Origin: a virus
Lineage: Duplodnaviria; Heunggongvirae; Uroviricota; Caudoviricetes
Length of the DNA stretch: 45,369 bases
IMG/VR virus record: IMGVR_UViG_2684622541_000015
Strand: one strand, 5' to 3'
Under the pieces are notes generated by a model. It had not been told where the DNA came from and ran no database searches. It saw nothing but the letters and a program-made list of their open reading frames with translations. Shown piece by piece: positions 35,393 through 45,369 of the stretch (its first letter is position 1; each line of letters opens with the position of its first letter). The translations under genes were made by a program, and so were the position numbers.

Positions 35393-35803
35393 NNNNNNNN
35401 NNNNNNNNNNNNNNNNNNNNNNNNNNNNNNNNNNNNNNNNNNNNNNNNNNNNNNNNNNNNNNNNNNNNNNNNNNNNNNNNNNNNNNNNNNNNNNNNNNNN
35501 NNNNNNNNNNNNNNNNNNNNNNNNNNNNNNNNNNNNNNNNNNNNNNNNNNNNNNNNNNNNNNNNNNNNNNNNNNNNNNNNNNNNNNNNNNNNNNNNNNNN
35601 NNNNNNNNNNNNNNNNNNNNNNNNNNNNNNNNNNNNNNNNNNNNNNNNNNNNNNNNNNNNNNNNNNNNNNNNNNNNNNNNNNNNNNNNNNNNNNNNNNNN
35701 NNNNNNNNNNNNNNNNNNNNNNNNNNNNNNNNNNNNNNNNNNNNNNNNNNNNNNNNNNNNNNNNNNNNNNNNNNNNNNNNNNNNNNNNNNNNNNNNNNNN
35801 NNN
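35393..35803. other. assembly gap (411 N)
   Basis: Run of N; the track ORF spanning it is an artefact. Confidence 0.95.
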
Positions 35804-36140: not shown

Positions 36141-39100
36141 ATGGCAGTAAAGATTTCAGGTGTACTGAAAGACGGCACAGGAAAACCGGTACAGAACTGC
36201 ACAATCCAGCTGAAAGCAAAACGTAACAGCACCACGGTGGTGGTGAACACGCTGGCCTCAGAAAATCCGGATGAAGCCGGGCGTTACAGCATGGACGTTG
36301 AGTACGGTCAGTACAGCGTTATTCTGTTGGTGGAAGGATTCCCGCCGTCACATGCCGGGACCATCACCGTGTATGAAGATTCCCGACCCGGTACGCTGAA
36401 TGATTTTCTCGGTGCCATGACGGAGGATGATGCCCGTCCGGAGGCTCTGCGCCGTTTTGAGCTGATGGTGGAAGAGGTGGCGCGTAACGCGTCCGCNNNN
36501 NNNNNNNNNNNNNNNNNNNNNNNNNNNNNNNNNNNNNNNNNNNNNNNNNNNNNNNNNNNNNNNGTGGCACAGAACACGGCAGCCGCGAAGAAGTCAGCCA
36601 GTGATGCCAGAACATCTGCCCGTGAGGCGGCAACCCATGCGACTGATGCTGCAGGCTCAGCACGTGCAGCCAGCACGTCAGCCGGACAGGCCGCGACGTC
36701 GGCTCAGGAGGCTTTTTCCAGCGCAGGAACGGCATCAACAAAGGCCACTGAAGCATCAAAAAGTGCTGCCGCTGCAGAGTCCTCAAAAAGCGCGGCGGCC
36801 ACCAGTGCCGGTGCGGCGAAAACGTCAGAAACGAATGCGGCAGCGTCACAACAATCAGCTGCCACTTCTGCATCCACCGCGACCACGAAAGCGTCAGAAG
36901 CAGCCACCTCAGCCAGAGATGCGTCGGCTTCAAAAGAGGCGGCAAAATTATCAGAAACGAGCGCAGCTTCGAGCGCCAGTAATGCCGCTTCCTCGGCAAC
37001 GGCGGCAGGAAATTCCGCGAAGGCGGCAAAGACGTCTGAGACAAACGCTAAGTCCTCTGAAACGGCAGCAGCACAGAGTGCCTCCGCAGCAGCAGGCTCA
37101 AAAACAGCGGCTGCGTCGTCTGCCAGTGCAGCGTCAACAAGTGCCGGGCAGGCCTCAGCCAGTGCTAGCGCCGCCGGAAAATCGGCAGAAAGCGCCGCAT
37201 CGTCCGCTTCAACAGCCACAACGAAGGCTGGCGAAGCCACTGAACAGGCCAGTGCAGCAGCGAGGTCTGCTTCCGCAGCGAAGACATCGGAGACGAACGC
37301 GAAAGCGTCGGAGACCAGCGCAGAATCCTCAAAAACGGCTGCCGCATCGTCCGCCAGTTCGGCGGCGTCATCGGCATCATCGGCGTCTGCTTCAAAAGAT
37401 GAGGCGACCAGACAAGCGTCCGCAGCGAAGGGCAGCGCCACGACAGCATCCACGAAGGCGACAGAGGCTGCTGGCAGTGCGACGGCGGCAGCACAGAGCA
37501 AAAGTACGGCGGAATCCGCGGCAACGCGCGCCGAGACAGCGGCAAAACGTGCAGAGGATATTGCATCCGCCGTGGCGCTTGAGGATGCGAGCACGACGAA
37601 AAAGGGGATAGTACAGCTCAGTAGTGCGACTAATAGCACGTCTGAAACGCTGGCGGCAACGCCAAAGGCAGTAAAAGCAGCCAATGACAATGCTGAGAAA
37701 CGTCTGCAGAAAGACCAGAACGGCGCTGATATACCCGATAAGGGACGCTTCCTGAACAACATTAACGCGGTCAGTAAAACAGACTTTGCTGATAAGCGTG
37801 GTATGCGTTATGTGCGGGTTAACGCTCCTGCAGGTGCAACATCTGGAAAATATTACCCTGTTGTTGTTATGCGTTCTGCTGGCTCAGTAAGCGAACTGGC
37901 ATCAAGGGTCATTATCACCACGGCAACGCGAATCGCAGGCGATCCGATGAATAACTGCGAGTTTAACGGATTTGTTATGCCTGGTGGCTGGACTGACAGG
38001 GGGCGTTATGCTTATGGAATGTTCTGGCAATATCAAAACAATGAACGAGCCATCCACTCAATAATGATGAGTAATAAGGGCGATGATTTGCGCTCTGTGT
38101 TCTATGTTGATGGCGCTGCTTTCCCTGTTTTTGCGTTTCTCGAAGATGGCCTGTCAATATCCGCACCTGGTGCTGATCTCGTTGTTAATGATACGACCTA
38201 TAAGTTTGGGGCAACAAATCCGGCGACTGAATGTATCGCGGCGGACGTTATCCTTGATTTTAAGAGTGGGCGTGGTTTTTATGAGTCTCATTCGTTAATC
38301 GTTAACGATAACTTGTCGTGCAAAAAACTTTTTGCCACAGACGAAATTGTAGCGCGTGGTGGTAATCAGATTCGAATGATAGGTGGGGAGTATGGTGCAT
38401 TATGGCGTAATGATGGCGCTAAAACTTACCTGCTGCTTACCAATCAAGGTGATGTTTATGGTGGCTGGAATACATTAAGACCGTTTGTTATTGATAACGC
38501 AACCGGCGAACTGGTTATTGGAACCAAACTGTCTGCAAGTCTGAACGGTAACGCATTGACAGCAACAAAGCTGCAAACGCCAAGACTGGTTTCTGGTGTT
38601 GAGTTTGATGGTTCCAAAGATATTACTTTAACCGCCGCGCATGTGGCTGCTTTTGCCAGAAGGGCAACGGATACATATGCCGATGCGGATGGTGGCGTTC
38701 CATGGAATGCCGAATCAGGCGCTTACAATGTCACCCGCTCTGGCAACAGCTATATTCTGGTTAACTTCTATACCGGAGTCGGAAGTTGCCGGACCTTGCA
38801 GATGAAGGCGCATTACAGAAATGGTGGTCTGTTCTACCGTTCTTCAAGAGACGGTTATGGTTTTGAGGAAGACTGGGCAGAAGTTTATACCTCGAAAAAT
38901 CTTCCACCAGAAAGCTACCCAGTCGGTGCACCAATCCCGTGGCCATCAGATACCGTTCCGTCTGGTTATGCCCTGATGCAGGGACAGACTTTTGACAAAT
39001 CTGCTTACCCGAAACTTGCAGCCGTTTATCCGTCAGGTGTGATCCCTGATATGCGTGGCTGGACGATTAAGGGCAAACCTGCCAGTGGTCGGGCCGTATT

Positions 39101-39605
39101 GTCTCAGGAACAGGACGGCATTAAATCGCATACCCACAGCGCCAGCGCATCCAGTACGGATTTGGGGACGAAAACCACATCGTCGTTTGATTACGGCACT
39201 AAATCCACGAATAACACTGGTGCGCATACCCATAGTTTAAGTGGCAGCACGAATGCAGCTGGTAATCACAGCCATAGAGATGGCCGTCGATTTAACCCCA
39301 GTGTTTTTAAAGATACTTATCAATATGGTTATACAAGCTCAGGTCAAAATACCTGGGGTGTACAAGGCTCAGTAGGTATGTCTACGGGGTGGTTAGCGAA
39401 TACCAGTACAGATGGTAATCATAGCCACTCACTGTCCGGCACAGCAGCATCTGCAGGTGCACACGCGCATACTGTCGGTATTGGTGCTCATACGCACTCC
39501 GTTGCGATTGGTTCACATGGACATACCATCACCGTTAACGCTGCGGGTAACGCGGAAAACACCGTCAAAAACATCGCATTTAACTATATTGTGAGGCTTG
39601 CATAA
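36141..39605 (+). CDS. stf: side tail fibre protein (Stf-like), interrupted by a 67-N gap
   Basis: N-terminus [26 protein letters not shown]… closely matches my recollection of lambda Stf. Long Ala/Ser/Thr-rich repeat region; His-rich C-terminal tip (HSHS…HAHT…HTHS…HGHT). Start ATG 36141. Confidence 0.8.
36497..36563. other. assembly gap (67 N) inside stf
   Basis: Run of N. Confidence 0.95.
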
Positions 39606-40189
39606 TGGCATTCAGAATGAGTGAACAACCACGGACCATAAAAATTTATAATCTGCTGACCGGAACTAATGAATTTATTGGTGAAGGTGACGCATATATT
39701 CCGCCTCATACAGGTCTGCCAGCAAACAGTACCTATATTGCACCGCCAGATATTCCGGCTGGCTTTGTGGCTGTTTTCAACAGTGATGAGGCATCGTGGC
39801 ATCTCGTTGAAGACCATCGGGGTAAAACGGTTTATGACGTAGCGTCAGGGGACGCGTTATTTATTTCTGAACTCGGTCCGTTACCGGAAAATGTTACCTG
39901 GTTATCCCCGGAAGGGGAGTTTCAGAAGTGGAACGGCACAGCCTGGGTGAAGGATACGGAAGCAGAAAAACTGTTCCGGATCCGGGAGGCGGAAGAAACA
40001 AAAAACAGCCTGATGCAGGTAGCCAGTGAGCATATTGCGCCGCTTCAGGATGCTGCAGATCTGGAAATCGCAACGGAGGAAGAAACCTCGTTGCTGGAAG
40101 CCTGGAAGAAGTATCGGGTGTTGCTGAACCGTGTTGATACATCAACTGCACCTGATATTGAGTGGCCTGCGGTCCCTGTTATGGAGTAA
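39605..40189 (+). CDS. tfa: tail fibre assembly protein (Tfa-like)
   Basis: 194 aa directly after stf with overlapping start/stop; typical Tfa size and position. Confidence 0.7.
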
Positions 40190-40260
40190 TCGTTTTGTGA
40201 TATGCCGCAGCAACTTGTCATGGCAGGATACTGCGGCTGATTTGTGAATTTAAATAGTGT

Positions 40261-40324
40261 NNNNNNNNNNNNNNNNNNNNNNNNNNNNNNNNNNNNNNNN
40301 NNNNNNNNNNNNNNNNNNNNNNNN
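40261..40324. other. assembly gap (64 N)
   Basis: Run of N, 14 nt downstream of the RT stop codon. Confidence 0.95.
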
Positions 40325-40338
40325 AATGGATTACATAT

Positions 40339-41709
40339 CTATGATATCCCTGAAATGTCCTCTTCAAGCTCTTTTACTGATTTCGCAATTTTAAATTTAA
40401 ATTTTCTCTCTATTTCACTATTGCTAAGTTTTTTTTCATTCTCTTTCCCTATCCACATAGAAACAATTTCTCGTTTCTGAGATATATGTAGATTGTCAAA
40501 GTTAGGTATGTATTTAAAAGTCTCCGCTCTACCCCTGCGGAGTTCATAGAAAGTTTTAATCAAAGACTTTGGTTTTATTTCTGATGAAAGGCCGAATCGG
40601 CGGATAAGATTATTGATCGTATGATTAACAGCTCGAAGTTGAGCTGTTGACGTTATTTGTGAGAAGTACGATACCCATCCCAATCGTTTACCTTCAAACA
40701 CACATCCCGTAATTCTAAGATTTAGTTTCCACTGACAATATGCAACAGCTCGTTCTTTATCGCGCTTATTTTTAGCTTGTAGTAGAGCGTGTCTATATGC
40801 AGTAAAAATTTTTGCTAAGGATGACTCAAATCTAAGAATGCTCTCATGTTTTATCAATAATTCTCGATTTTTTATGTGGTAGCCCAAAAAGTTGAAACTT
40901 TCATCCAAGCTGCCTACTTTGGATTTTGAGTTCTCTTCATTTAATGGATGTGGGTTTAAATTTAATGATTGAAGCTTATCAATGATATGAGAAGCTATTT
41001 TTGTTGCTTGATATTTTGGTGTTAAAATAAGAATGTCATCAACGTATCGCATGTACCATATGTCATGCATTTTATTGATTTCATCATCGAAATTAGATAG
41101 TGATATTTCAGCTAAAATGTTTGATATCGCTAATCCCTGAGGTACTCCTCTGGTATTATTAGGGATACCTTTGCTTCCTGTGGTTCCACTTACAGTAGGC
41201 ACGATTAATGATGATGTTATTAACTGTCTAATTTCTTTTTTTCTAATTTTATTTTTTATTGCATTAATTATCAATTTATGTTCAATTGAAGGATAGAAAC
41301 TTTTAAGATCTATTTTTGCATATTCAGCATATAGACTGTTGTTTAATGCTTCTTTCAATGAGTCAATTACTGTATGTGGTAGTTTTAATCTGGACTTAGG
41401 ATATATTTCCGTAAGGCATTCACAGAGAGCTCTAAGAGTAATTCTGTCCCTAGCAGTTGGTATGGAAATCTGTCTGGGTGTAGAGTTAGCGCCTTTAGAT
41501 ATTAATTTTTCTTTATATGCTGTAAATTTGTAATTGCCAGAATTAACCTTTTCAAAAATGAAAGTGATCTCATTTTTTATTGTCAAATCAAGTTTTGATG
41601 GGCGAATCCGATCTATGCCAATCGCTCCTGATTCTTTGATTTTTTCAGAGTATACTTTTAGAAGATTTTTTTTCGAGAATGACTTTTTAAAAATTCTGCT
41701 TGCAGTCAT
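40339..41709 (-). CDS. reverse transcriptase (retron/Abi/UG-like; family unassigned) with ~150-aa C-terminal extension
   Basis: RT motifs read directly: KIDLKSFYPSI (motif A-like), RGVPQGLAISNILAEISL (motif B-like), YMRYVDDILIL (YxDD), FNFLGYHI (motif E-like). AT-rich. First ATG at 41709; track start 41715 is TTG. 5' end overlaps the upstream membrane-protein gene by ~23 nt. Confidence 0.75.
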   Translation of the reverse strand: MTASRIFKKSFSKKNLLKVYSEKIKESGAIGIDRIRPSKLDLTIKNEITFIFEKVNSGNYKFTAYKEKLISKGANSTPRQISIPTARDRITLRALCECLTEIYPKSRLKLPHTVIDSLKEALNNSLYAEYAKIDLKSFYPSIEHKLIINAIKNKIRKKEIRQLITSSLIVPTVSGTTGSKGIPNNTRGVPQGLAISNILAEISLSNFDDEINKMHDIWYMRYVDDILILTPKYQATKIASHIIDKLQSLNLNPHPLNEENSKSKVGSLDESFNFLGYHIKNRELLIKHESILRFESSLAKIFTAYRHALLQAKNKRDKERAVAYCQWKLNLRITGCVFEGKRLGWVSYFSQITSTAQLRAVNHTINNLIRRFGLSSEIKPKSLIKTFYELRRGRAETFKYIPNFDNLHISQKREIVSMWIGKENEKKLSNSEIERKFKFKIAKSVKELEEDISGIS

Positions 41710-42238
41710 AGTCAATCCAAAGATATATTAATGGGAGTATATAAAGTGCGGCAGTAATAAATATTCGAAGTAATATCCATAAAATAACAATTATTTTTTC
41801 TTTTTGTGTGGGGATCCTCGTCTTAAGTCCAACTTGAGTTACCCTTGAAATTTTATCATCTATGTCACGGTGATTCTCAACCTCATTGAGCAAATTAAAA
41901 TATTTTTCTTTCTGTTCAAGAGATAACTGTTGACTGGTGGTAATGTCAAAATAGAGTCGCTGTAGTGCAATATAATTCCTTCTCATGGCTATTGCTCGAC
42001 CACGAAAATCTAGGTTAGATACGATCAGAGAAATACCCAGTAGAGCCACTGAAAGTATCGCCGCAACGACATCTGTATTATCTCCTAGAACCTTTGGAAA
42101 TCGCAACGTTACAATTGAAAGTACCGCACTCAATATAGCATACCAAACGAGGATAAATTGAGAGTGTTTTTCAAGCCATTCTAGTCGATGGTGCGCTTGG
42201 ATACGTGCTTTATATGTAAACCAAATATTGTCATGCAT
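41687..42238 (-). CDS. small multi-pass membrane protein, candidate effector partner of the RT
   Basis: 183 aa with three hydrophobic segments (FILVWYAILSAVLSIVTL; VVAAILSVALLGISLIVS; IIVILWILLRIFITAALYILPLIYLWI) and a ~60-aa central soluble region. AT-rich; RBS AAAAAGGA before the ATG. Confidence 0.55.
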   Translation of the reverse strand: MHDNIWFTYKARIQAHHRLEWLEKHSQFILVWYAILSAVLSIVTLRFPKVLGDNTDVVAAILSVALLGISLIVSNLDFRGRAIAMRRNYIALQRLYFDITTSQQLSLEQKEKYFNLLNEVENHRDIDDKISRVTQVGLKTRIPTQKEKIIVILWILLRIFITAALYILPLIYLWIDYDCKQNF

Positions 42239-42460
42239 AAAAGATCCTTTTTAAAAGCGGAAGGGGCAGGATATATTGGAACCGTTGAACATCCTGCCCG
42301 GCAGGATCAGTGAGCATAAGCTCAACAGTAAAATATTACTGTTCATTATCAGAGCCGCCCTTGCATGCGCAAGAGGAAAAACCTGCCCCATCCCTTTGAA
42401 TTATTACAATTTAATGATCTTAAAGTCAATACAAGTGAATGGTGTCCAGAGATGATGAAC
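42239..42460 (-). ncRNA. hairpin-dense leader / candidate structured non-coding RNA upstream of the membrane-protein/RT operon
   Basis: Within ~130 nt: GGGGCAGGAT (42263..42272), complement ATCCTGCCC (42291..42299), GGCAGGAT (42300..42307), complement CCTGCCCC (42382..42389); plus hairpins AACAGTAA-AATA-TTACTGTT (42324..42343), TGAGC-ATAA-GCTCA (42311..42324), CTTGC-ATGC-GCAAG (42360..42373). No ORF of 60 aa or more. Confidence 0.3.
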
Positions 42461-42709
42461 TTAATGAACAAACCACTCGTCAGCAGACTCCCAGGTATCT
42501 TTCAGAGTCTCCTGAACAAAAGTTTTAGCTGAATCTTTATCAGCGGTGCGCGTAACAGAAAGGCCATCGTTGCTGGTGGCTTTTACGATCACTTCTACAT
42601 CGTCATAACGTTTACTGATGCGTCGGGTTAATTCTTCCTTTAACGCATCCACAGCACCGGTTGGCATTTTAGTCATTTTTTCTTTGGCTATGCAGATTTC
42701 AATACGCAT
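42461..42709 (-). CDS. dinI: DinI-family protein
   Basis: 82 aa; MRIEICIAK…[10 protein letters not shown]…[15 protein letters not shown] closely matches my recollection of E. coli DinI (MRIEVTIAK…GAIDAL…ETWESADDWFV). Tandem SOS boxes upstream. Confidence 0.7.
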
Positions 42710-42721
42710 AAAAGTCCCCTA

Positions 42722-42769
42722 CACTGTATTTGTATACAGTATTATTTTTAACTGTATGGATAAACAGTG
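42722..42769. promoter_or_regulatory. two tandem LexA (SOS) boxes upstream of the dinI-like gene
   Basis: CACTGTATTTGTATACAGTA (42722..42741) and AACTGTATGGATAAACAGTG (42750..42769), each CTGT-N8-ACAG with AT-rich centre; they overlap the 3' end of the integrase ORF. Confidence 0.6.
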
Positions 42770-43867
42770 TCAAGAGGTCTTATTTCTGCTCCTTTGGAGT
42801 TCTTCAAAACGATTATGTAAAGATTTCGGATACAGTTCGGTATATACCTGCCATAGCACGTTTAATGAACGATGCCCTGTAACCTGAGCGACTTCCTCAA
42901 TACTAAAACCAGCCTCAAATAAGCGACTTGCCCCTTCTCTACGCAAATCATGGTATCTCAGATCTTTAATACCTAATTTGCTTCTTACCCTCTGAAATCC
43001 TGCGGTAACAGAAGTGCTGTTATATGGAAAAATGAATTCTGATTTTTTGGGTTGTCGCTGGACGATATCCCAGGCTTCCCCAAGCAAGGCAACTTTCATA
43101 TGGTTGCCTTCCTTTTTACGTGGATCTTTCCTGTCTCTTACTAGTATAGATTTTTGTTCCTGGTCGAGATCTTCCCATCGTAACCGGCATACTTCTCCGA
43201 TTCGCATACAGGACCACACAGAAAATTTGAGGATATCAACGAACGGAATTTTTGAGCATTTATGAGTAGATCGTTGTTGAAGGCCTTCAATGAGCATGTT
43301 CAGTTCATCAGATGCTGGTCTACGATTACGACGGTTTGATTTACCAATCAAACCGAGTTTAAGTAGATATGGACGAGCGCTTTTCGCCGGGTTTGATGTG
43401 TAATTGATTCCGTATACAGGTTTTGCCGCATCCAGAACACTGCCAAGATAACTAACATCGTGGCTGACTGTTGCTGGGCCTGCACCAGCGTTGTTTCTTA
43501 GCCTGCAATGTTCAATTACGTCATTTTCTGTCAGTTCAGATAGTTTGATCGCGGAGATGTCACTATCCATAAGCAGTTCCAGCACATATCTTTTAGTACG
43601 GCCTGCTTTACCTCCGGCATTTGGGTCATTTAAATATTTGTGTAGTAAGTCACGGACTGTAAGTCCGTCAACAGCATTTGATGATGGAATGCCATATAGA
43701 TCTAATTCCATCACTTTCTGTGCGCCCCATGTTTTGGCATGAGCATGTTTAGGGAATGTTTTGCTTTCCCTGTAAGTGATAACACCTTTTTCTTTGATAA
43801 TCACATTACAGCGATAGCGTGGTGTGCCATCGGATTTTAGTCGTTTCTCTATGTTATAGTACGCCAT
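42770..43867 (-). CDS. int: tyrosine recombinase / phage integrase, divergent from dusA
   Basis: 365 aa; C-terminal catalytic region (…HDLRREGASRLFEAG…VTGHRSLNVLWQVYTELYP) consistent with the tyrosine recombinase R-H-R-Y family; start lies 88 bp from the dusA start on the opposite strand. Confidence 0.85.
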   Translation of the reverse strand: MAYYNIEKRLKSDGTPRYRCNVIIKEKGVITYRESKTFPKHAHAKTWGAQKVMELDLYGIPSSNAVDGLTVRDLLHKYLNDPNAGGKAGRTKRYVLELLMDSDISAIKLSELTENDVIEHCRLRNNAGAGPATVSHDVSYLGSVLDAAKPVYGINYTSNPAKSARPYLLKLGLIGKSNRRNRRPASDELNMLIEGLQQRSTHKCSKIPFVDILKFSVWSCMRIGEVCRLRWEDLDQEQKSILVRDRKDPRKKEGNHMKVALLGEAWDIVQRQPKKSEFIFPYNSTSVTAGFQRVRSKLGIKDLRYHDLRREGASRLFEAGFSIEEVAQVTGHRSLNVLWQVYTELYPKSLHNRFEELQRSRNKTS

Positions 43868-43886
43868 TACACGACCTCGTTATTTC

Positions 43887-43922
43887 GGGTTCCCATAAAG
43901 CGTGGGAACCTGTGCGGGAACC
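43887..43922. repeat. GGGAACC-type inverted and direct repeats in the int-dusA intergenic region
   Basis: GGGTTCCC (43887..43894) facing GGGAACC (43904..43910), with a second direct GGGAACC (43916..43922). Confidence 0.35.
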
Positions 43923-43955
43923 TAACGCGAGAAAAATAGCCTGAAATGTTCAAAA

Positions 43956-44993
43956 ATGCACGATAATCCTGAAACACAGAAAACTAATCAAACCAGCGTG
44001 ATGCCTGAAAAAACTGGCGCTTACTGGAGTTCTCGGTTTAGCATTGCTCCTATGCTCGACTGGACGGACAGACATTGCCGCTATTTCTTGCGTCTGCTTT
44101 CCCGCAATACGTTGCTGTATACCGAAATGGTGACCACAGGGGCGATTATTCACGGTAAAGGTGATTACCTGGCGTACAGTGAAGAAGAACATCCGGTAGC
44201 GTTGCAACTCGGCGGTAGCGATCCGGCGGCGCTGGCACAGTGTGCGAAGCTGGCAGAAGCGCGTGGATATGATGAGATCAACCTGAATGTCGGCTGCCCG
44301 TCTGACCGGGTGCAGAACGGCATGTTTGGTGCGTGTCTGATGGGTAATGCGCAGCTGGTTGCCGACTGCGTGAAAGCGATGCGCGATGTGGTGTCGATTC
44401 CAGTGACGGTGAAAACGCGTATTGGCATCGATGACCAGGACAGCTATGAATTTCTCTGCGATTTCATCAACACCGTTTCCGGCAAAGGCGAGTGTGAGAT
44501 GTTTATCATCCACGCACGTAAAGCCTGGCTTTCGGGGTTAAGCCCGAAAGAAAACCGTGAAATCCCGCCACTCGATTATCCGCGTGTGTATCAACTGAAG
44601 CGTGACTTTCCGCATCTGACAATGTCGATTAACGGTGGTATCAAGTCGCTGGAAGAGGCCAAAGCACACCTGCAACATATGGATGGCGTGATGGTCGGGC
44701 GCGAGGCGTATCAGAATCCGGGTATTCTGGCGGCGGTAGACCGGGAGATCTTTGGTTCCTCGGATACCGATGCCGATCCGGTGGCGGTAGTGCGCGCCAT
44801 GTATCCGTACATTGAGCGTGAACTCAGCCAGGGGACGTATCTCGGCCATATTACCCGGCATATGTTGGGCTTGTTCCAGGGTATTCCTGGCGCGCGGCAG
44901 TGGCGGCGTTATTTAAGTGAAAATGCCCATAAAGCGGGTGCAGACATTAATGTGCTGGAACACGCGCTCAAACTGGTGGCGGATAAGCGTTAA
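43956..44993 (+). CDS. dusA: tRNA-dihydrouridine synthase A
   Basis: 345 aa; matches my recollection of E. coli DusA over nearly the full length (…[14 protein letters not shown]…[14 protein letters not shown]…[10 protein letters not shown]…). Confidence 0.9.
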
Positions 44994-45126
44994 CTTTTCA
45001 CCAAAAAGTAGTCAAATTCACCACGCCCTGCGCACCGTCGCGGGGCGTTTTGCTGTTAAATCAATAGATTATTTTTGGCATGATTCTTGTAATGCCAGCA
45101 AGAGATTTCATATTTGGGAGAGCATC

Positions 45127-45369
45127 ATGCTGGAACTACTTTTTGTGATTGGCTTTTTTGTCATGCTGATGGTCACCGGCGTTTCGTTGCTGGGCATTAT
45201 CGCCGCGCTGGTTGTGGCGACGGCCATTATGTTCCTCGGCGGTATGCTGGCATTGATGATTAAGTTGCTGCCGTGGTTACTACTGGCGATTGCGGTGGTG
45301 TGGGTTATTAAGGCGATTAAAGCACCAAAAGTGCCGAAATATCAGCGTTATGACCGCTGGCGTTACTAA
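45127..45369 (+). CDS. pspG: phage shock protein G
   Basis: 80-aa hydrophobic protein MLELLFVIGFFVMLMVTG…KYQRYDRWRY matching E. coli PspG; lies downstream of dusA as in E. coli. The 150-aa track ORF is an upstream in-frame extension. Confidence 0.8.
   Translation: MLELLFVIGFFVMLMVTGVSLLGIIAALVVATAIMFLGGMLALMIKLLPWLLLAIAVVWVIKAIKAPKVPKYQRYDRWRY

What the first reader, a model, noticed from the sequence alone, without database searches (positions are those of the whole stretch)
42239..42460. Hairpin-dense 220-bp leader with a G/C motif repeated in alternating orientation, possible retron-like or DRT-like ncRNA
Seen in sequence: between the dinI-like stop and the membrane-protein start, no ORF of 60 aa or more, but four copies of an 8-10-nt motif in alternating orientation (GGGGCAGGAT 42263..42272; ATCCTGCCC 42291..42299; GGCAGGAT 42300..42307; CCTGCCCC 42382..42389) and three further perfect or near-perfect hairpins (42311..42324, 42324..42343, 42360..42373). 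On the minus-strand transcript the outermost copies would pair as 5'-GGGGCAGG…ATCCTGCCCC-3' about 109 nt apart, ending 24 nt before the membrane-protein ATG. Established knowledge: retron msr-msd RNAs are bounded by inverted repeats (a1/a2) and are packed with short stem-loops; several DRT systems need a structured ncRNA upstream of the RT. Inference: this may be the RNA component of the RT module, or a riboswitch/attenuator-like leader with mutually exclusive hairpins. At ~127 nt it is short for a typical msr-msd.
Basis: partly seen in the sequence, partly recalled or inferred. Interest (0 to 1): 0.65.

Follow-up and report, generated by a model that had tools for sequence, protein, structure and literature searches.

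The report
DRT10 reverse-transcriptase template RNA gene
The hairpin-rich spacer is the gene for the small structured RNA that a prophage-borne anti-phage reverse transcriptase (DRT10/UG17) copies over and over into tandem-repeat DNA, a telomerase-like system first described in 2025, so the feature is real and functional but already known.

Summary
All four motif copies and all three hairpins sit at the stated coordinates, and the region is far more structured than shuffled sequence.

The region encodes the noncoding RNA of a DRT10 (UG17 RT + SLATT) defence system, on the minus strand at about 42393..42257 (137 nt).
- The downstream genes score as RT_UG17 (E=1e-158) and RT-associated SLATT (E=1.5e-56).
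- The RT is 98% identical to Eco3DRT10, the published model system. The RNA differs from Eco3-type alleles at only 3-4 of 162 aligned bases.
- In 59 distinct homologues the published fold is 93.6% paired, and 22 of 40 pairs carry compensatory changes. That fold is a basal stem SL1, hairpins SL2-SL5 and a template loop.
- A covariance model built without any E. coli sequence hits the window once (138 bits, E=6e-31).

The "alternating" motif copies are the two strands of SL1 and the two arms of SL5. The mutually exclusive pairing they allow is specific to E. coli alleles, thermodynamically minor and dispensable in published tests.

By homology the template is CAACGGUUC, followed by the realignment site CAAU. 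The predicted product is (GAACCGTTG)n, primed from Ser456 of the RT.

It is not a retron. The DRT-like-ncRNA reading is supported. Novelty: already known. The small additions are an unannotated gene and a majority template allele that, as far as I found, has not been assayed.

The parts
42400..42429 (-). Sigma-70-type promoter of the ncRNA. It reads -35 TTGACT (42429..42424), an 18-nt spacer, then an extended -10 TGtAATAAT (42408..42400). This places +1 at G42393.
   Evidence: One search gives 10 of 12 consensus matches with TG before the -10. The predicted +1 coincides with nt 1 of the Eco3DRT10 RNA as mapped onto the window by the numbering offset. Function is inferred, not shown.
42257..42393 (-). 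DRT10 (UG17) ncRNA gene, 137 nt, an allele of the Eco3DRT10 ncRNA.
   Evidence: The covariance model R1, built from 53 non-E. coli homologues, hits 42248..42400(-) at 138.3 bits, E=6e-31, and this is the only hit in the window. The RNA differs at 3-4 of 162 aligned bases from E. coli alleles that carry the published Eco3 template. The boundaries come from the published 137-nt RIP-seq species (PMC12632851).
42382..42393 (-). SL1 (basal stem), 5' strand GGAUGGGGCAGG. This holds motif copy 'A'.
   Evidence: It pairs with 42259..42270. Nine of its 12 pairs show changes on both sides, and 91% of cells pair across 59 homologues.
42259..42270 (-). SL1 (basal stem), 3' strand CCUGCCCCUUCC. This holds motif copy 'D'.
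   Evidence: (I1). The probability of the pair is 0.97-0.98 in the 137-mer.
42355..42377 (-). SL2 hairpin (UCCUCUUGC-GCAU-GCAAGGG-c-GG).
   Evidence: 99.1% of cells pair. Three pairs are compensatory, for example U-A in 31 sequences versus C-G in 28.
42343..42354 (-). Loop A (CUCUGAUAAUGA), the most conserved single-stranded segment. In the published 2:1 complex it sits in the active site of the second RT monomer and yields only short abortive cDNA.
   Evidence: These columns are invariant or nearly invariant in A2. The role is taken from the cryo-EM and biochemistry of Eco3DRT10. The position is mapped by the numbering offset (G44 = 42350).
42324..42343 (-). SL3 hairpin (AACAGUAA-UAUU-UUACUGUU).
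   Evidence: Five of 8 pairs are compensatory.
42312..42323 (-). SL4 hairpin (GAGC-UUAU-GCUC).
   Evidence: The A-U pair is replaced by G-C in 19 sequences. RNAalifold instead offered a pairing of its 5' arm with GCUC of loop A, but that pairing has no two-sided changes.
42291..42307 (-). SL5 hairpin (AUCCUGC-CGG-GCAGGAU). It holds motif copies 'B' and 'C' and is the 5' template-boundary anchor.
   Evidence: 93% of cells pair, and U-A is replaced by C-G in 27 sequences. The boundary role comes from Eco3 experiments. The flanking G42308 and G42290 are invariant and correspond to the published G86-G104 Hoogsteen pair.
42279..42287 (-). Template A-B: CAACGGUUC (Eco3 positions C107-C115). The predicted cDNA repeat unit is 5'-GAACCGTTG-3'.
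   Evidence: It aligns base for base with the Eco3 template CAAUGAUUC and differs at two positions. A CAA...CAA repeat with a period of 9-11 nt is visible at this place in most of the 59 homologues. The product is inferred, not measured.
42275..42278 (-). A' realignment site CAAU (Eco3 C116-U119). C116 templates the first, protein-primed nucleotide.
   Evidence: It is identical to Eco3 A'.
42271..42290 (-). Loop B (the template loop), GUUCAACGGUUCCAAUAUAU, including the 5' linker UU (42289..42288) and the 3' linker AUAU (42274..42271).
41687..42238 (-). SLATT membrane effector gene (183 aa). A Shine-Dalgarno AAGGA sits at about 42249..42245.
   Evidence: PADLOC RTasSLATT, E=1.5e-56. RefSeq annotates it as 'SLATT domain-containing protein'.
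40339..41709 (-). UG17/DRT10 reverse transcriptase (456 aa from the ATG at 41709). It carries YVDD at 222-225, R371, K385, Y388 and the C-terminal priming residue Ser456.
   Evidence: PADLOC RT_UG17, E=1.1e-158. It is 98.0% identical to Eco3DRT10 RT OKX54664 over the 399 aa held.

Best explanation
Window 42393..42257 (minus strand) is the gene for the ncRNA of a prophage-borne DRT10 (UG17 RT + SLATT) anti-phage system. It is a natural allele of the experimentally characterised Eco3DRT10 ncRNA.

Expression (inferred): the RNA is transcribed from its own sigma-70 promoter, TTGACT-18-TGtAATAAT, with +1 at about 42393.

Fold (shown here by covariation): a G+C-rich basal stem SL1, formed by the 5' and 3' ends, closes hairpins SL2, SL3, SL4 and SL5 and two single-stranded loops, A and B.

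Mechanism (from published work on the 98%-identical system, inferred for this locus):
- Two RT monomers bind one RNA.
- The monomer on loop B primes DNA synthesis from its own C-terminal Ser456, opposite C116 (42278).
- It copies the template up to C107 (42287), where a fixed distance from the SL5 anchor stops it.
- The nascent 3' end then unpairs and re-anneals to A' (CAAU, 42278..42275), and the cycle repeats.
- The result is kilobase-long single-stranded tandem repeats covalently attached to the RT.

For this allele the template is CAACGGUUC, so the predicted product is (GAACCGTTG)n. Realignment would use 3 Watson-Crick pairs plus a dG:rU wobble.

The cDNA is thought to control the SLATT membrane effector. 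How it does so is unresolved in the literature.

The four 'alternating' motif copies are simply the two strands of SL1 and the two arms of SL5, the two helices that flank and position the template loop.
For: Gene identities:
- The RT scores RT_UG17 at E=1.1e-158 and the membrane protein scores RTasSLATT at E=1.5e-56.
- The RT is 98.0% identical to Eco3DRT10 RT. It has YVDD, R371, K385, Y388 and Ser456.

Identity with the studied RNA:
- E. coli alleles that carry the published template CAAUGAUUC|CAAU differ from the window RNA at 3-4 of 162 aligned bases.
- The published positions G44, G86, G104, C107, G111 and C116 all map onto the window with one constant offset.

Structure:
- On 59 distinct homologues the SL1-SL5 fold is 93.6% paired, against 47-52% for slid controls.
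- 22 of 40 pairs have changes on both sides, and 0 of 500 shuffles reach the observed values.
- RNAalifold run on non-E. coli sequences alone recovers SL1, SL2, SL3 and SL5.
- The 137-mer's minimum-energy fold is this fold, with pair probability 0.97.

Linkage:
- A DNA pattern taken only from the RNA found 74 sites in viral and metagenome contigs. At 72 of them a SLATT gene starts about 140 nt downstream, followed by the RT wherever the contig extends far enough.

Family test:
- The covariance model built without E. coli sequences hits the window once, at 138 bits and E=6e-31.

Template signature:
- A CAA...CAA (A-B-A') repeat sits at the homologous place in most of the 59 homologues.

Published function:
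- PMC12632851, 10.64898/2026.04.29.721553 and 10.64898/2026.06.29.735271.
Against: Nothing was measured for this exact allele. No transcript ends, cDNA or defence phenotype are available.
- The template differs from Eco3 at two positions (U110C and A112G in Eco3 numbering). This shortens perfect A/A' identity from 4 nt to 3 nt.
- A competing 4-nt repeat, GUUC...GUUC with a period of 8, overlaps the template.
- The RNA's 3' end is taken over by homology only.
- The role of the cDNA and the activation of SLATT are unresolved. The two groups disagree on whether cDNA falls or rises on infection.
- The three papers are preprints.
Confidence: 0.93

Rival explanations
1. The region is a riboswitch- or attenuator-like leader. 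The four motif copies would form two mutually exclusive sets of helices: A:D + B:C (SL1 + SL5) versus A:B + C:D. Switching between them would regulate SLATT-RT expression or RNA activity.
For: The minimum-energy fold of the 222-nt spacer uses A:B + C:D. In the 137-mer the alternative fold lies only about 3 kcal/mol above the optimum (-53.9 versus -57.1). It holds 2% of the ensemble here and 12% in Eco3-type alleles. A and B are transcribed before D, so the alternative fold could form first during transcription; that step is inference.
Against: The alternative helices are only 70% paired across 59 homologues and show no excess of compensatory pairs (303 of 500 shuffles do as well). The probability of the alternative pairs is 0.00 in all 53 homologues from other organisms. 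Nine sequences combine A at SL1 position 17 with C at SL5 position 98 and so break the alternative helix. Published flipping of the SL5 base pairs in the Eco3 RNA, which would destroy complementarity to SL1, left phage defence intact.
Confidence: 0.03
2. The region is a retron msr-msd RNA. The outer inverted repeat would act as a1/a2, and the RT would make branched multicopy single-stranded DNA primed from a 2'-OH of a guanosine in the RNA.
For: The region has an outer inverted repeat that encloses several hairpins and lies next to an RT gene.
Against: The RT's best model is RT_UG17 at E=1e-158. The next best are other UG/DRT models, and no retron RT model appears among the 25 best. For the 98%-identical RT, priming is from Ser456 of the protein and the product is a tandem repeat of a 9-nt template, not a copy of an msd stem. 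The gene order RNA-SLATT-RT and the RNA fold match DRT10, and Rfam finds nothing here.
Confidence: 0.01
3. The system is as in the best explanation, but this allele makes a different product. Because GUUC (42290..42287) recurs at 42282..42279, the RT would use the 8-nt register and make (CGTTGAAC)n, or a mixture of 8- and 9-nt repeats.
For: GUUC...GUUC is a 4-nt repeat with a period of 8 nt. It is longer than the perfect 3-nt CAA...CAA repeat in this allele. Eco1DRT10 shows that cryptic re-annealing sites can blur the repeat register.
Against: In Eco3 the 5' boundary is set geometrically, at a fixed distance from the SL5 anchor (G104 plus the linker U105-U106), and not by sequence. SL5, G104 and the linker are identical in this allele. 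The 8-nt register needs read-through into the linker and G104. Eco3 itself carries UUC...UUC at the same period yet makes a precise 9-nt repeat. Most Pseudomonas-type homologues lack the GUUC repeat but keep CAA...CAA.
Confidence: 0.08
4. The spacer is only a promoter and 5' UTR for the SLATT-RT operon. Its hairpins would have no function of their own.
For: The RNA ends about 18 nt before the SLATT start codon. No second promoter-like site lies between them on the minus strand. The operon's mRNA therefore probably starts at or upstream of the same promoter, which makes the RNA physically a leader as well.
Against: Compensatory changes maintain five helices over RT divergence down to about 47% identity. 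Loop A and the template-loop signature are conserved in sequence. In Eco3, deleting or scrambling the RNA abolishes defence and cDNA synthesis, and purified RT plus synthetic RNA suffice for synthesis in vitro. In a different, 7-nt-repeat DRT10 homologue (Escherichia sp. E3659), trans-complementation restores function.
Confidence: 0.02

Closest known systems
Eco3DRT10 ncRNA (Tang et al. 2025, PMC12632851; Ramirez et al. 2026, 10.64898/2026.06.29.735271)
   Same: Same locus type: a prophage moron with the order DinI-like gene, ncRNA, SLATT, RT. The RNA length, the five stem-loops, loop A, the G86/G104 anchor, both linkers and the A' site CAAU are the same. The RT is 98% identical, with the same catalytic, RNA-anchoring and priming residues.
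   Different: There are two substitutions inside the template (CAAUGAUUC in Eco3, CAACGGUUC here) and one or two elsewhere. The predicted repeat is therefore GAACCGTTG instead of GAATCATTG, and A/A' identity is 3 nt plus a wobble instead of 4 nt. Among complete E. coli genomes that carry the RNA, the window's template allele is in 154 and the Eco3 allele in 34.
Other DRT10/UG17 ncRNAs (Eco1- and Eco2-like; UG17-A/B/C of Sanchez-Nieto et al. 2026)
   Same: They share the tripartite ncRNA-SLATT-RT module, a basal stem formed by the RNA ends, inner hairpins, a template loop with an A-B-A' pattern downstream of a stable hairpin, and tandem-repeat cDNA.
   Different: The sequences are not alignable between subtypes. 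They differ in the number of hairpins (six in Eco1 and E3659), in repeat length (7-8 nt) and in priming residue (Tyr444 in Eco1).
Telomerase RNA with TERT
   Same: It works alike. A short internal template is copied repeatedly, the alignment segment (A') is identical to the template start, and a structured element sets the 5' template boundary.
   Different: Priming is from a protein serine, not from a chromosome 3' end. Two RTs bind one RNA. The RT is only 456 aa. The function is antiviral, and the product is not attached to a chromosome. This locus is not a member of the telomerase RNA family; the relation is analogy plus a proposed RT phylogeny.
DRT9 (UG28) and DRT2 (UG2) ncRNAs
   Same: These are Class 2 UG reverse transcriptases that iteratively copy a template in an adjacent structured ncRNA. 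The published DRT9 RNA fold resembles DRT10.
   Different: DRT9 uses a poly-U template, makes poly-dA and forms a hexamer. DRT2 does rolling-circle copying of about 120 nt to build a gene, and primes from the RNA 3' end. Neither has a SLATT partner in the same arrangement.
Retron msr-msd RNA
   Same: It is a structured RNA beside an RT gene, bounded by an inverted repeat.
   Different: The RT clade, the priming chemistry, the product and the gene order all differ. See the membership test.

Membership tests
DRT10 (UG17) defence system | Reverse transcriptase of the UG17 clade with an intact YxDD catalytic motif | tested here: met
   PADLOC RT_UG17 at E=1.1e-158, covering 1-429 of 429 profile positions. 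YVDD is at 222-225. The RT is 98.0% identical to Eco3DRT10 RT.
DRT10 (UG17) defence system | Adjacent, translationally coupled SLATT membrane protein | tested here: met
   RTasSLATT at E=1.5e-56. The SLATT stop codon (41687) overlaps the RT start (41709/41715).
DRT10 (UG17) defence system | Structured ncRNA immediately upstream of SLATT: a basal stem formed by the RNA ends, inner stem-loops, and a template loop following the last stem-loop | tested here: met
   Covariation on 59 homologues. The covariance model built without E. coli sequences hits at 138 bits, E=6e-31. The RNA is near-identical to Eco3-type alleles.
DRT10 (UG17) defence system | A-B-A' repeat pattern in the template loop | tested here: met
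   CAA(C)-GGUUC-CAA(U) lies at 42287..42275, homologous to Eco3 CAAU-GAUUC-CAAU. It is weaker here, with 3 identical nt plus a possible G:U wobble.
DRT10 (UG17) defence system | C-terminal priming residue and RNA-anchoring residues (S456, R371, K385, Y388 in Eco3) | tested here: met
   All four are present at the same positions when counted from the ATG at 41709.
DRT10 (UG17) defence system | RT-dependent, protein-linked tandem-repeat cDNA, with phage defence requiring RNA, RT and SLATT | not testable with these tools
   Shown for Eco3DRT10 and other homologues in the literature, not for this allele.
Retron | RT of the retron clade | tested here: not met
   The best models are UG17, then other UG/DRT models. 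No retron RT model is among the 25 best PADLOC hits.
Retron | msr-msd RNA with a1/a2 repeats and a priming guanosine, giving 2'-5' branched msDNA | not testable with these tools
   An outer inverted repeat exists, but the homologous system primes from a protein serine and copies only 9 nt. No Rfam match was found in the region.
Riboswitch / transcription attenuator | Conserved mutually exclusive helices that couple to an expression platform | tested here: not met
   The alternative helices are 70% paired with no excess of compensatory pairs. Their probability is 0 outside E. coli. No terminator-like site was found on the minus strand.
Any Rfam 15 family | Match to a curated covariance model | tested here: not met
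   Only sub-threshold chance hits to eukaryotic models overlap 42239..42460. Rfam 15 therefore appears to hold no model that detects this RNA.

The most novel reading that the evidence does not exclude
In E. coli alleles only, SL1 and SL5 have come to share the sequence GGCAGG(AU)/(AU)CCUGCC. The RNA can therefore fold into a second, non-functional topology (A:B + C:D), and this topology would form first during transcription. It might act as a kinetic trap or timer that limits how much active RT-RNA complex forms. In addition, the majority natural template allele (CAACGGUUC), which has a competing 8-nt register, might give a product or a repeat fidelity different from the studied Eco3 allele.
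Probability: 0.06. Interest if true: 0.4.

Novelty: already known. Interest (0 to 1): 0.25.

Why it matters
DRT10 is one of the most striking recent defence systems: a compact bacterial RT that makes telomere-like tandem repeats from an internal RNA template. Recognising its RNA gene from raw sequence shows that the scan can recover true functional ncRNAs.

For this locus the practical value is modest.
- The RNA gene is unannotated in all 188 complete E. coli genomes that carry it, and no Rfam 15 model detects it. Annotation pipelines therefore miss an essential third component of the system.
- The allele here is the common one in E. coli (154 of 188 genomes) but differs in the template from the allele studied experimentally. 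It gives a direct, cheap prediction to test: a (GAACCGTTG)n product.
- The fact that SLATT divergence and template allele do not track each other fits the published finding that the repeat sequence itself is not critical. For example, the template is the same where SLATT is 89% identical, and different where SLATT is 97-99% identical.

Tried and rejected
- Rfam 15 at E up to 10 over 39500..45369 gave no meaningful hit in the spacer. The only real hit was IS009 at 39948..40146.
- A BLAST of the RNA against 50,697 GenBank phage records gave no match.
- I searched the Tang et al. supplement for the RNA sequence. Table S2 is held only in part, with Eco1-like entries visible, so the Eco3 RNA sequence could not be read directly. 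Instead I recovered Eco3-type alleles from E. coli genomes by their published template motif.
- The minimum-energy fold of the whole 222-nt spacer gave the alternative A:B + C:D pairing. I rejected it as the native fold after trimming to the mature RNA and after the covariation test.
- I considered pairing between UGAAC (42345..42341) and GUUCA (42290..42286) as a pseudoknot. I rejected it because G57 varies (G/U/A) while its would-be partner C114 is nearly invariant, and because the bases overlap the SL3 stem.
- RNAalifold's alternative for SL4 (the 5' arm pairing with GCUC of loop A) shows one-sided changes only, whereas the SL4 hairpin has 19 two-sided changes.
- Small ORFs in the spacer (46 aa on the minus strand, 59 aa on the plus strand) were rejected. 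The substitution pattern among homologues is helix-compensatory, with indels in hairpin loops.
- Two pattern hits, L068 and L086, lack SLATT and RT. On inspection they share nothing beyond the pattern and are chance matches.
- The GUUC period-8 register was considered and given low weight. See the rival explanations.

Full report
**1. The observation**

On the + strand:
- GGGGCAGGAT is at 42263..42272.
- ATCCTGCCC is at 42291..42299.
- GGCAGGAT is at 42300..42307.
- CCTGCCCC is at 42382..42389.
- Hairpins lie at 42311..42324, 42324..42343 and 42360..42373.

The outer copies form a 12-nt, 92%-complementary inverted repeat with 111 nt between the arms. No ORF of 60 aa or more lies inside the spacer.

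The structure exceeds chance. The 222-nt minus-strand RNA folds at -66.6 kcal/mol, against -50.6 +/- 4.2 for shuffles (z = -3.8, 0 of 200 shuffles as good). Four of the window's 55 near-matches to GGCAGGAT lie within 123 bp.

**2. The surroundings**

All on the minus strand, the order is:
- integrase, 42770..43867;
- a DinI-like gene, 42461..42709;
- the spacer;
- a 183-aa membrane protein, 41687..42238;
- a reverse transcriptase, 40339..41715.

Tail-fibre genes lie on one side and dusA on the other. This is a moron at the end of a lambdoid prophage integrated beside dusA.

PADLOC scores the RT as RT_UG17 (E=1.1e-158, full-length profile) and the membrane protein as RT-associated SLATT (E=1.5e-56). 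RefSeq annotates the same three genes in E. coli genomes and nothing in the spacer.

**3. What is published**

UG17 plus SLATT is the DRT10 defence system. Three preprints describe it.

Tang et al. 2025 (PMC12632851):
- DRT10 is tripartite: ncRNA, SLATT and RT.
- RIP-seq of Eco3DRT10 revealed a 137-nt ncRNA in the spacer upstream of SLATT. [quoted passage not shown]
- The RT, primed from its own C-terminal Ser456, copies a 9-nt template (CAAUGAUUC) into kilobase-long tandem repeats of GAATCATTG.
- After each round the cDNA end re-anneals to a downstream copy (A', CAAU) of the template start (A). The authors liken this to telomerase.

Sanchez-Nieto et al. 2026 (10.64898/2026.04.29.721553):
- A homologue makes 7-nt repeats.
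- Its basal stem is needed for RNA stability and RT binding.
- The host exonuclease SbcB restrains the system's toxicity.

Ramirez et al. 2026 (10.64898/2026.06.29.735271):
- Cryo-EM shows two RT monomers on one pseudo-symmetric RNA.
- Synthesis initiates opposite C116.
- The 5' template boundary at C107 is set by a fixed distance from the SL5 anchor, which comprises the G86-G104 Hoogsteen pair, R371 and the linker U105-U106.

**4. This locus is an allele of Eco3DRT10**

- The window RT is 98.0% identical (391 of 399 residues held) to Eco3DRT10 RT OKX54664. It has the same two-codon upstream TTG that the authors flagged as a mis-annotated start.
- Counted from the ATG at 41709, it has YVDD at 222-225, R371, K385, Y388 and a terminal Ser456.
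- The RNA region is present in 188 of 5,426 complete E. coli genomes, always unannotated.
- Aligning five other alleles shows that two of them carry exactly the published template and A' (CAATGATTCCAAT). They differ from the window at only 3-4 of 162 aligned bases.
- All published landmarks (G44, G86, G104, C107, G111, C116, linker A120-U123) map onto the window with one constant offset: paper nt 1 = 42393. The RNA is therefore 42393..42257.
- A promoter-like site (TTGACT, 18 nt, TGtAATAAT) places +1 at 42393.

**5. Independent test of the structure**

I collected homologues in two ways.
- By RT protein: 14 loci from other genera, with 57-83% RT identity.
- By a DNA pattern taken only from the RNA (TTCCTCT-N9-16-AGGGYGGYTCTRAYAA): 74 sites in viral and metagenome contigs. 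At 72 of these a SLATT gene begins 133-154 nt after the pattern start, followed by the RT wherever the contig extends far enough. The other two are chance matches.

This gave 59 distinct RNA sequences (A2). The results were:
- The fold SL1-SL5 is 93.6% paired, against 47-52% when partners are slid.
- 22 of 40 pairs change on both sides (228 cells), and no shuffle in 500 reaches the observed values.
- Every helix has compensatory pairs.
- RNAalifold on the 53 non-E. coli sequences recovers SL1, SL2, SL3 and SL5 on its own.
- A covariance model built from those 53 sequences hits the window exactly once, at 42248..42400(-), with 138.3 bits and E=6e-31.
- Rfam 15 has nothing here.

**6. The 'alternating' motif**

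The four copies are the 5' strand of SL1 (A), the two arms of SL5 (B and C) and the 3' strand of SL1 (D). Because A resembles C and B resembles D in E. coli, a swapped pairing (A:B + C:D) is possible. It is the minimum-energy fold of the untrimmed spacer.

It is not the native fold, for four reasons:
- In the 137-mer the canonical fold wins (-57.1 versus -53.9 kcal/mol) and holds 97% of the ensemble.
- The swapped helices are only 70% paired across homologues, with no excess of compensatory pairs.
- Their probability is 0.02-0.12 in most E. coli alleles and 0.00 in all 53 homologues from other organisms.
- Flipping the SL5 base pairs in Eco3, which would abolish the swap, did not affect defence.

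**7. The template of this allele**

Loop B reads GUUCAACGGUUCCAAUAUAU (42290..42271). By alignment with Eco3:
- the template A-B is CAACGGUUC (42287..42279);
- A' is CAAU (42278..42275).

The allele differs from Eco3 by U110C and A112G. Both positions were mutationally tolerant in Eco3.

The predicted repeat is GAACCGTTG. Its 3' end, GTTG, can re-anneal to CAAU with three Watson-Crick pairs and a G:U wobble.

A competing GUUC...GUUC repeat with a period of 8 exists. It would need read-through into the linker and G104. The geometric boundary argues against that, and Eco3 has the same UUC...UUC yet is precise.

The window's template allele is the common one: 154 genomes, against 34 with the Eco3 template, which together make up all 188. 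A (U)CAA...(Y)CAA pattern with a 9-11-nt period is visible at this place in most of the 59 homologues.

**8. Verdict**

The finding is real, and its core interpretation (the RNA partner of the RT) is right. The retron and riboswitch readings are not.

It is a near-identical natural allele of an RNA whose function, mechanism and structure have already been published. Novelty is therefore 'already known' and interest is low to moderate.

What remains untested is specific and small: the product of this majority template allele, and whether the E. coli-specific SL1/SL5 sequence identity has any kinetic consequence.

Noticed in passing
window 42724..42739 and 42752..42767: Two LexA-box-like palindromes, CTGTATTTGTATACAG and CTGTATGGATAAACAG (CTG-N10-CAG), overlap a promoter-like site (TTGACA-18-AAAAAT, 42773..42744, minus strand) upstream of the DinI-like gene. 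No terminator-like site was found between that gene and the ncRNA promoter on the minus strand. SOS-induced read-through into the ncRNA-SLATT-RT module is therefore conceivable.
   Followed up: partly
window 39948..40146 (+): There is a full-length Rfam hit to IS009 (RF02111; 226.8 bits, E=1.5e-56). It lies inside the 194-aa ORF at 39605..40189, which corresponds to the gene annotated as tail-fibre assembly protein in the related E. coli locus.
   Followed up: no
window 35393..35803, 36497..36563, 40261..40324: There are three runs of N (411, 67 and 64 bases). The last lies just downstream of the RT stop codon (40339), so the 3' flank of the defence module cannot be read.
   Followed up: no
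window 41709..41715: The longest RT ORF starts at a TTG (41715), two codons upstream of an ATG (41709). Tang et al. note the same two-residue N-terminal over-extension in the GenBank record of Eco3DRT10. Counting from the ATG puts all published residues (R371, K385, Y388, S456) in register.
   Followed up: yes
E. coli complete genomes; loci L016-L020: The ncRNA is polymorphic in its template. 154 genomes carry CAACGGUUC and 34 carry CAAUGAUUC. SLATT divergence does not track the template allele: ETEC-2265 (L016) has a SLATT only 89% identical but the same template as the window.
   Followed up: partly
NZ_CM151387.1, NZ_CP082087.1, NZ_CP182198.1 (H18-H20): In some E. coli genomes an IS element (ISKox3-family, or IS2) is annotated between the RT and SLATT features. 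This suggests natural inactivation of the module.
   Followed up: no
L049 (3311..3458) and L055/L064: The most divergent homologues (RT about 47% identical) keep SL1-SL5 and loop A. They have a different template loop (GUCGUCCUGUUUCAUGUC; GUCUUCCUGUUCUGAAAU) without the CAA...CAA signature, and their A-B-A' pattern is unclear.
   Followed up: no
window 42308 and 42290: The two guanines flanking SL5 are invariant in all 59 homologues. They correspond to the published G86-G104 Hoogsteen pair that anchors R371.
   Followed up: yes
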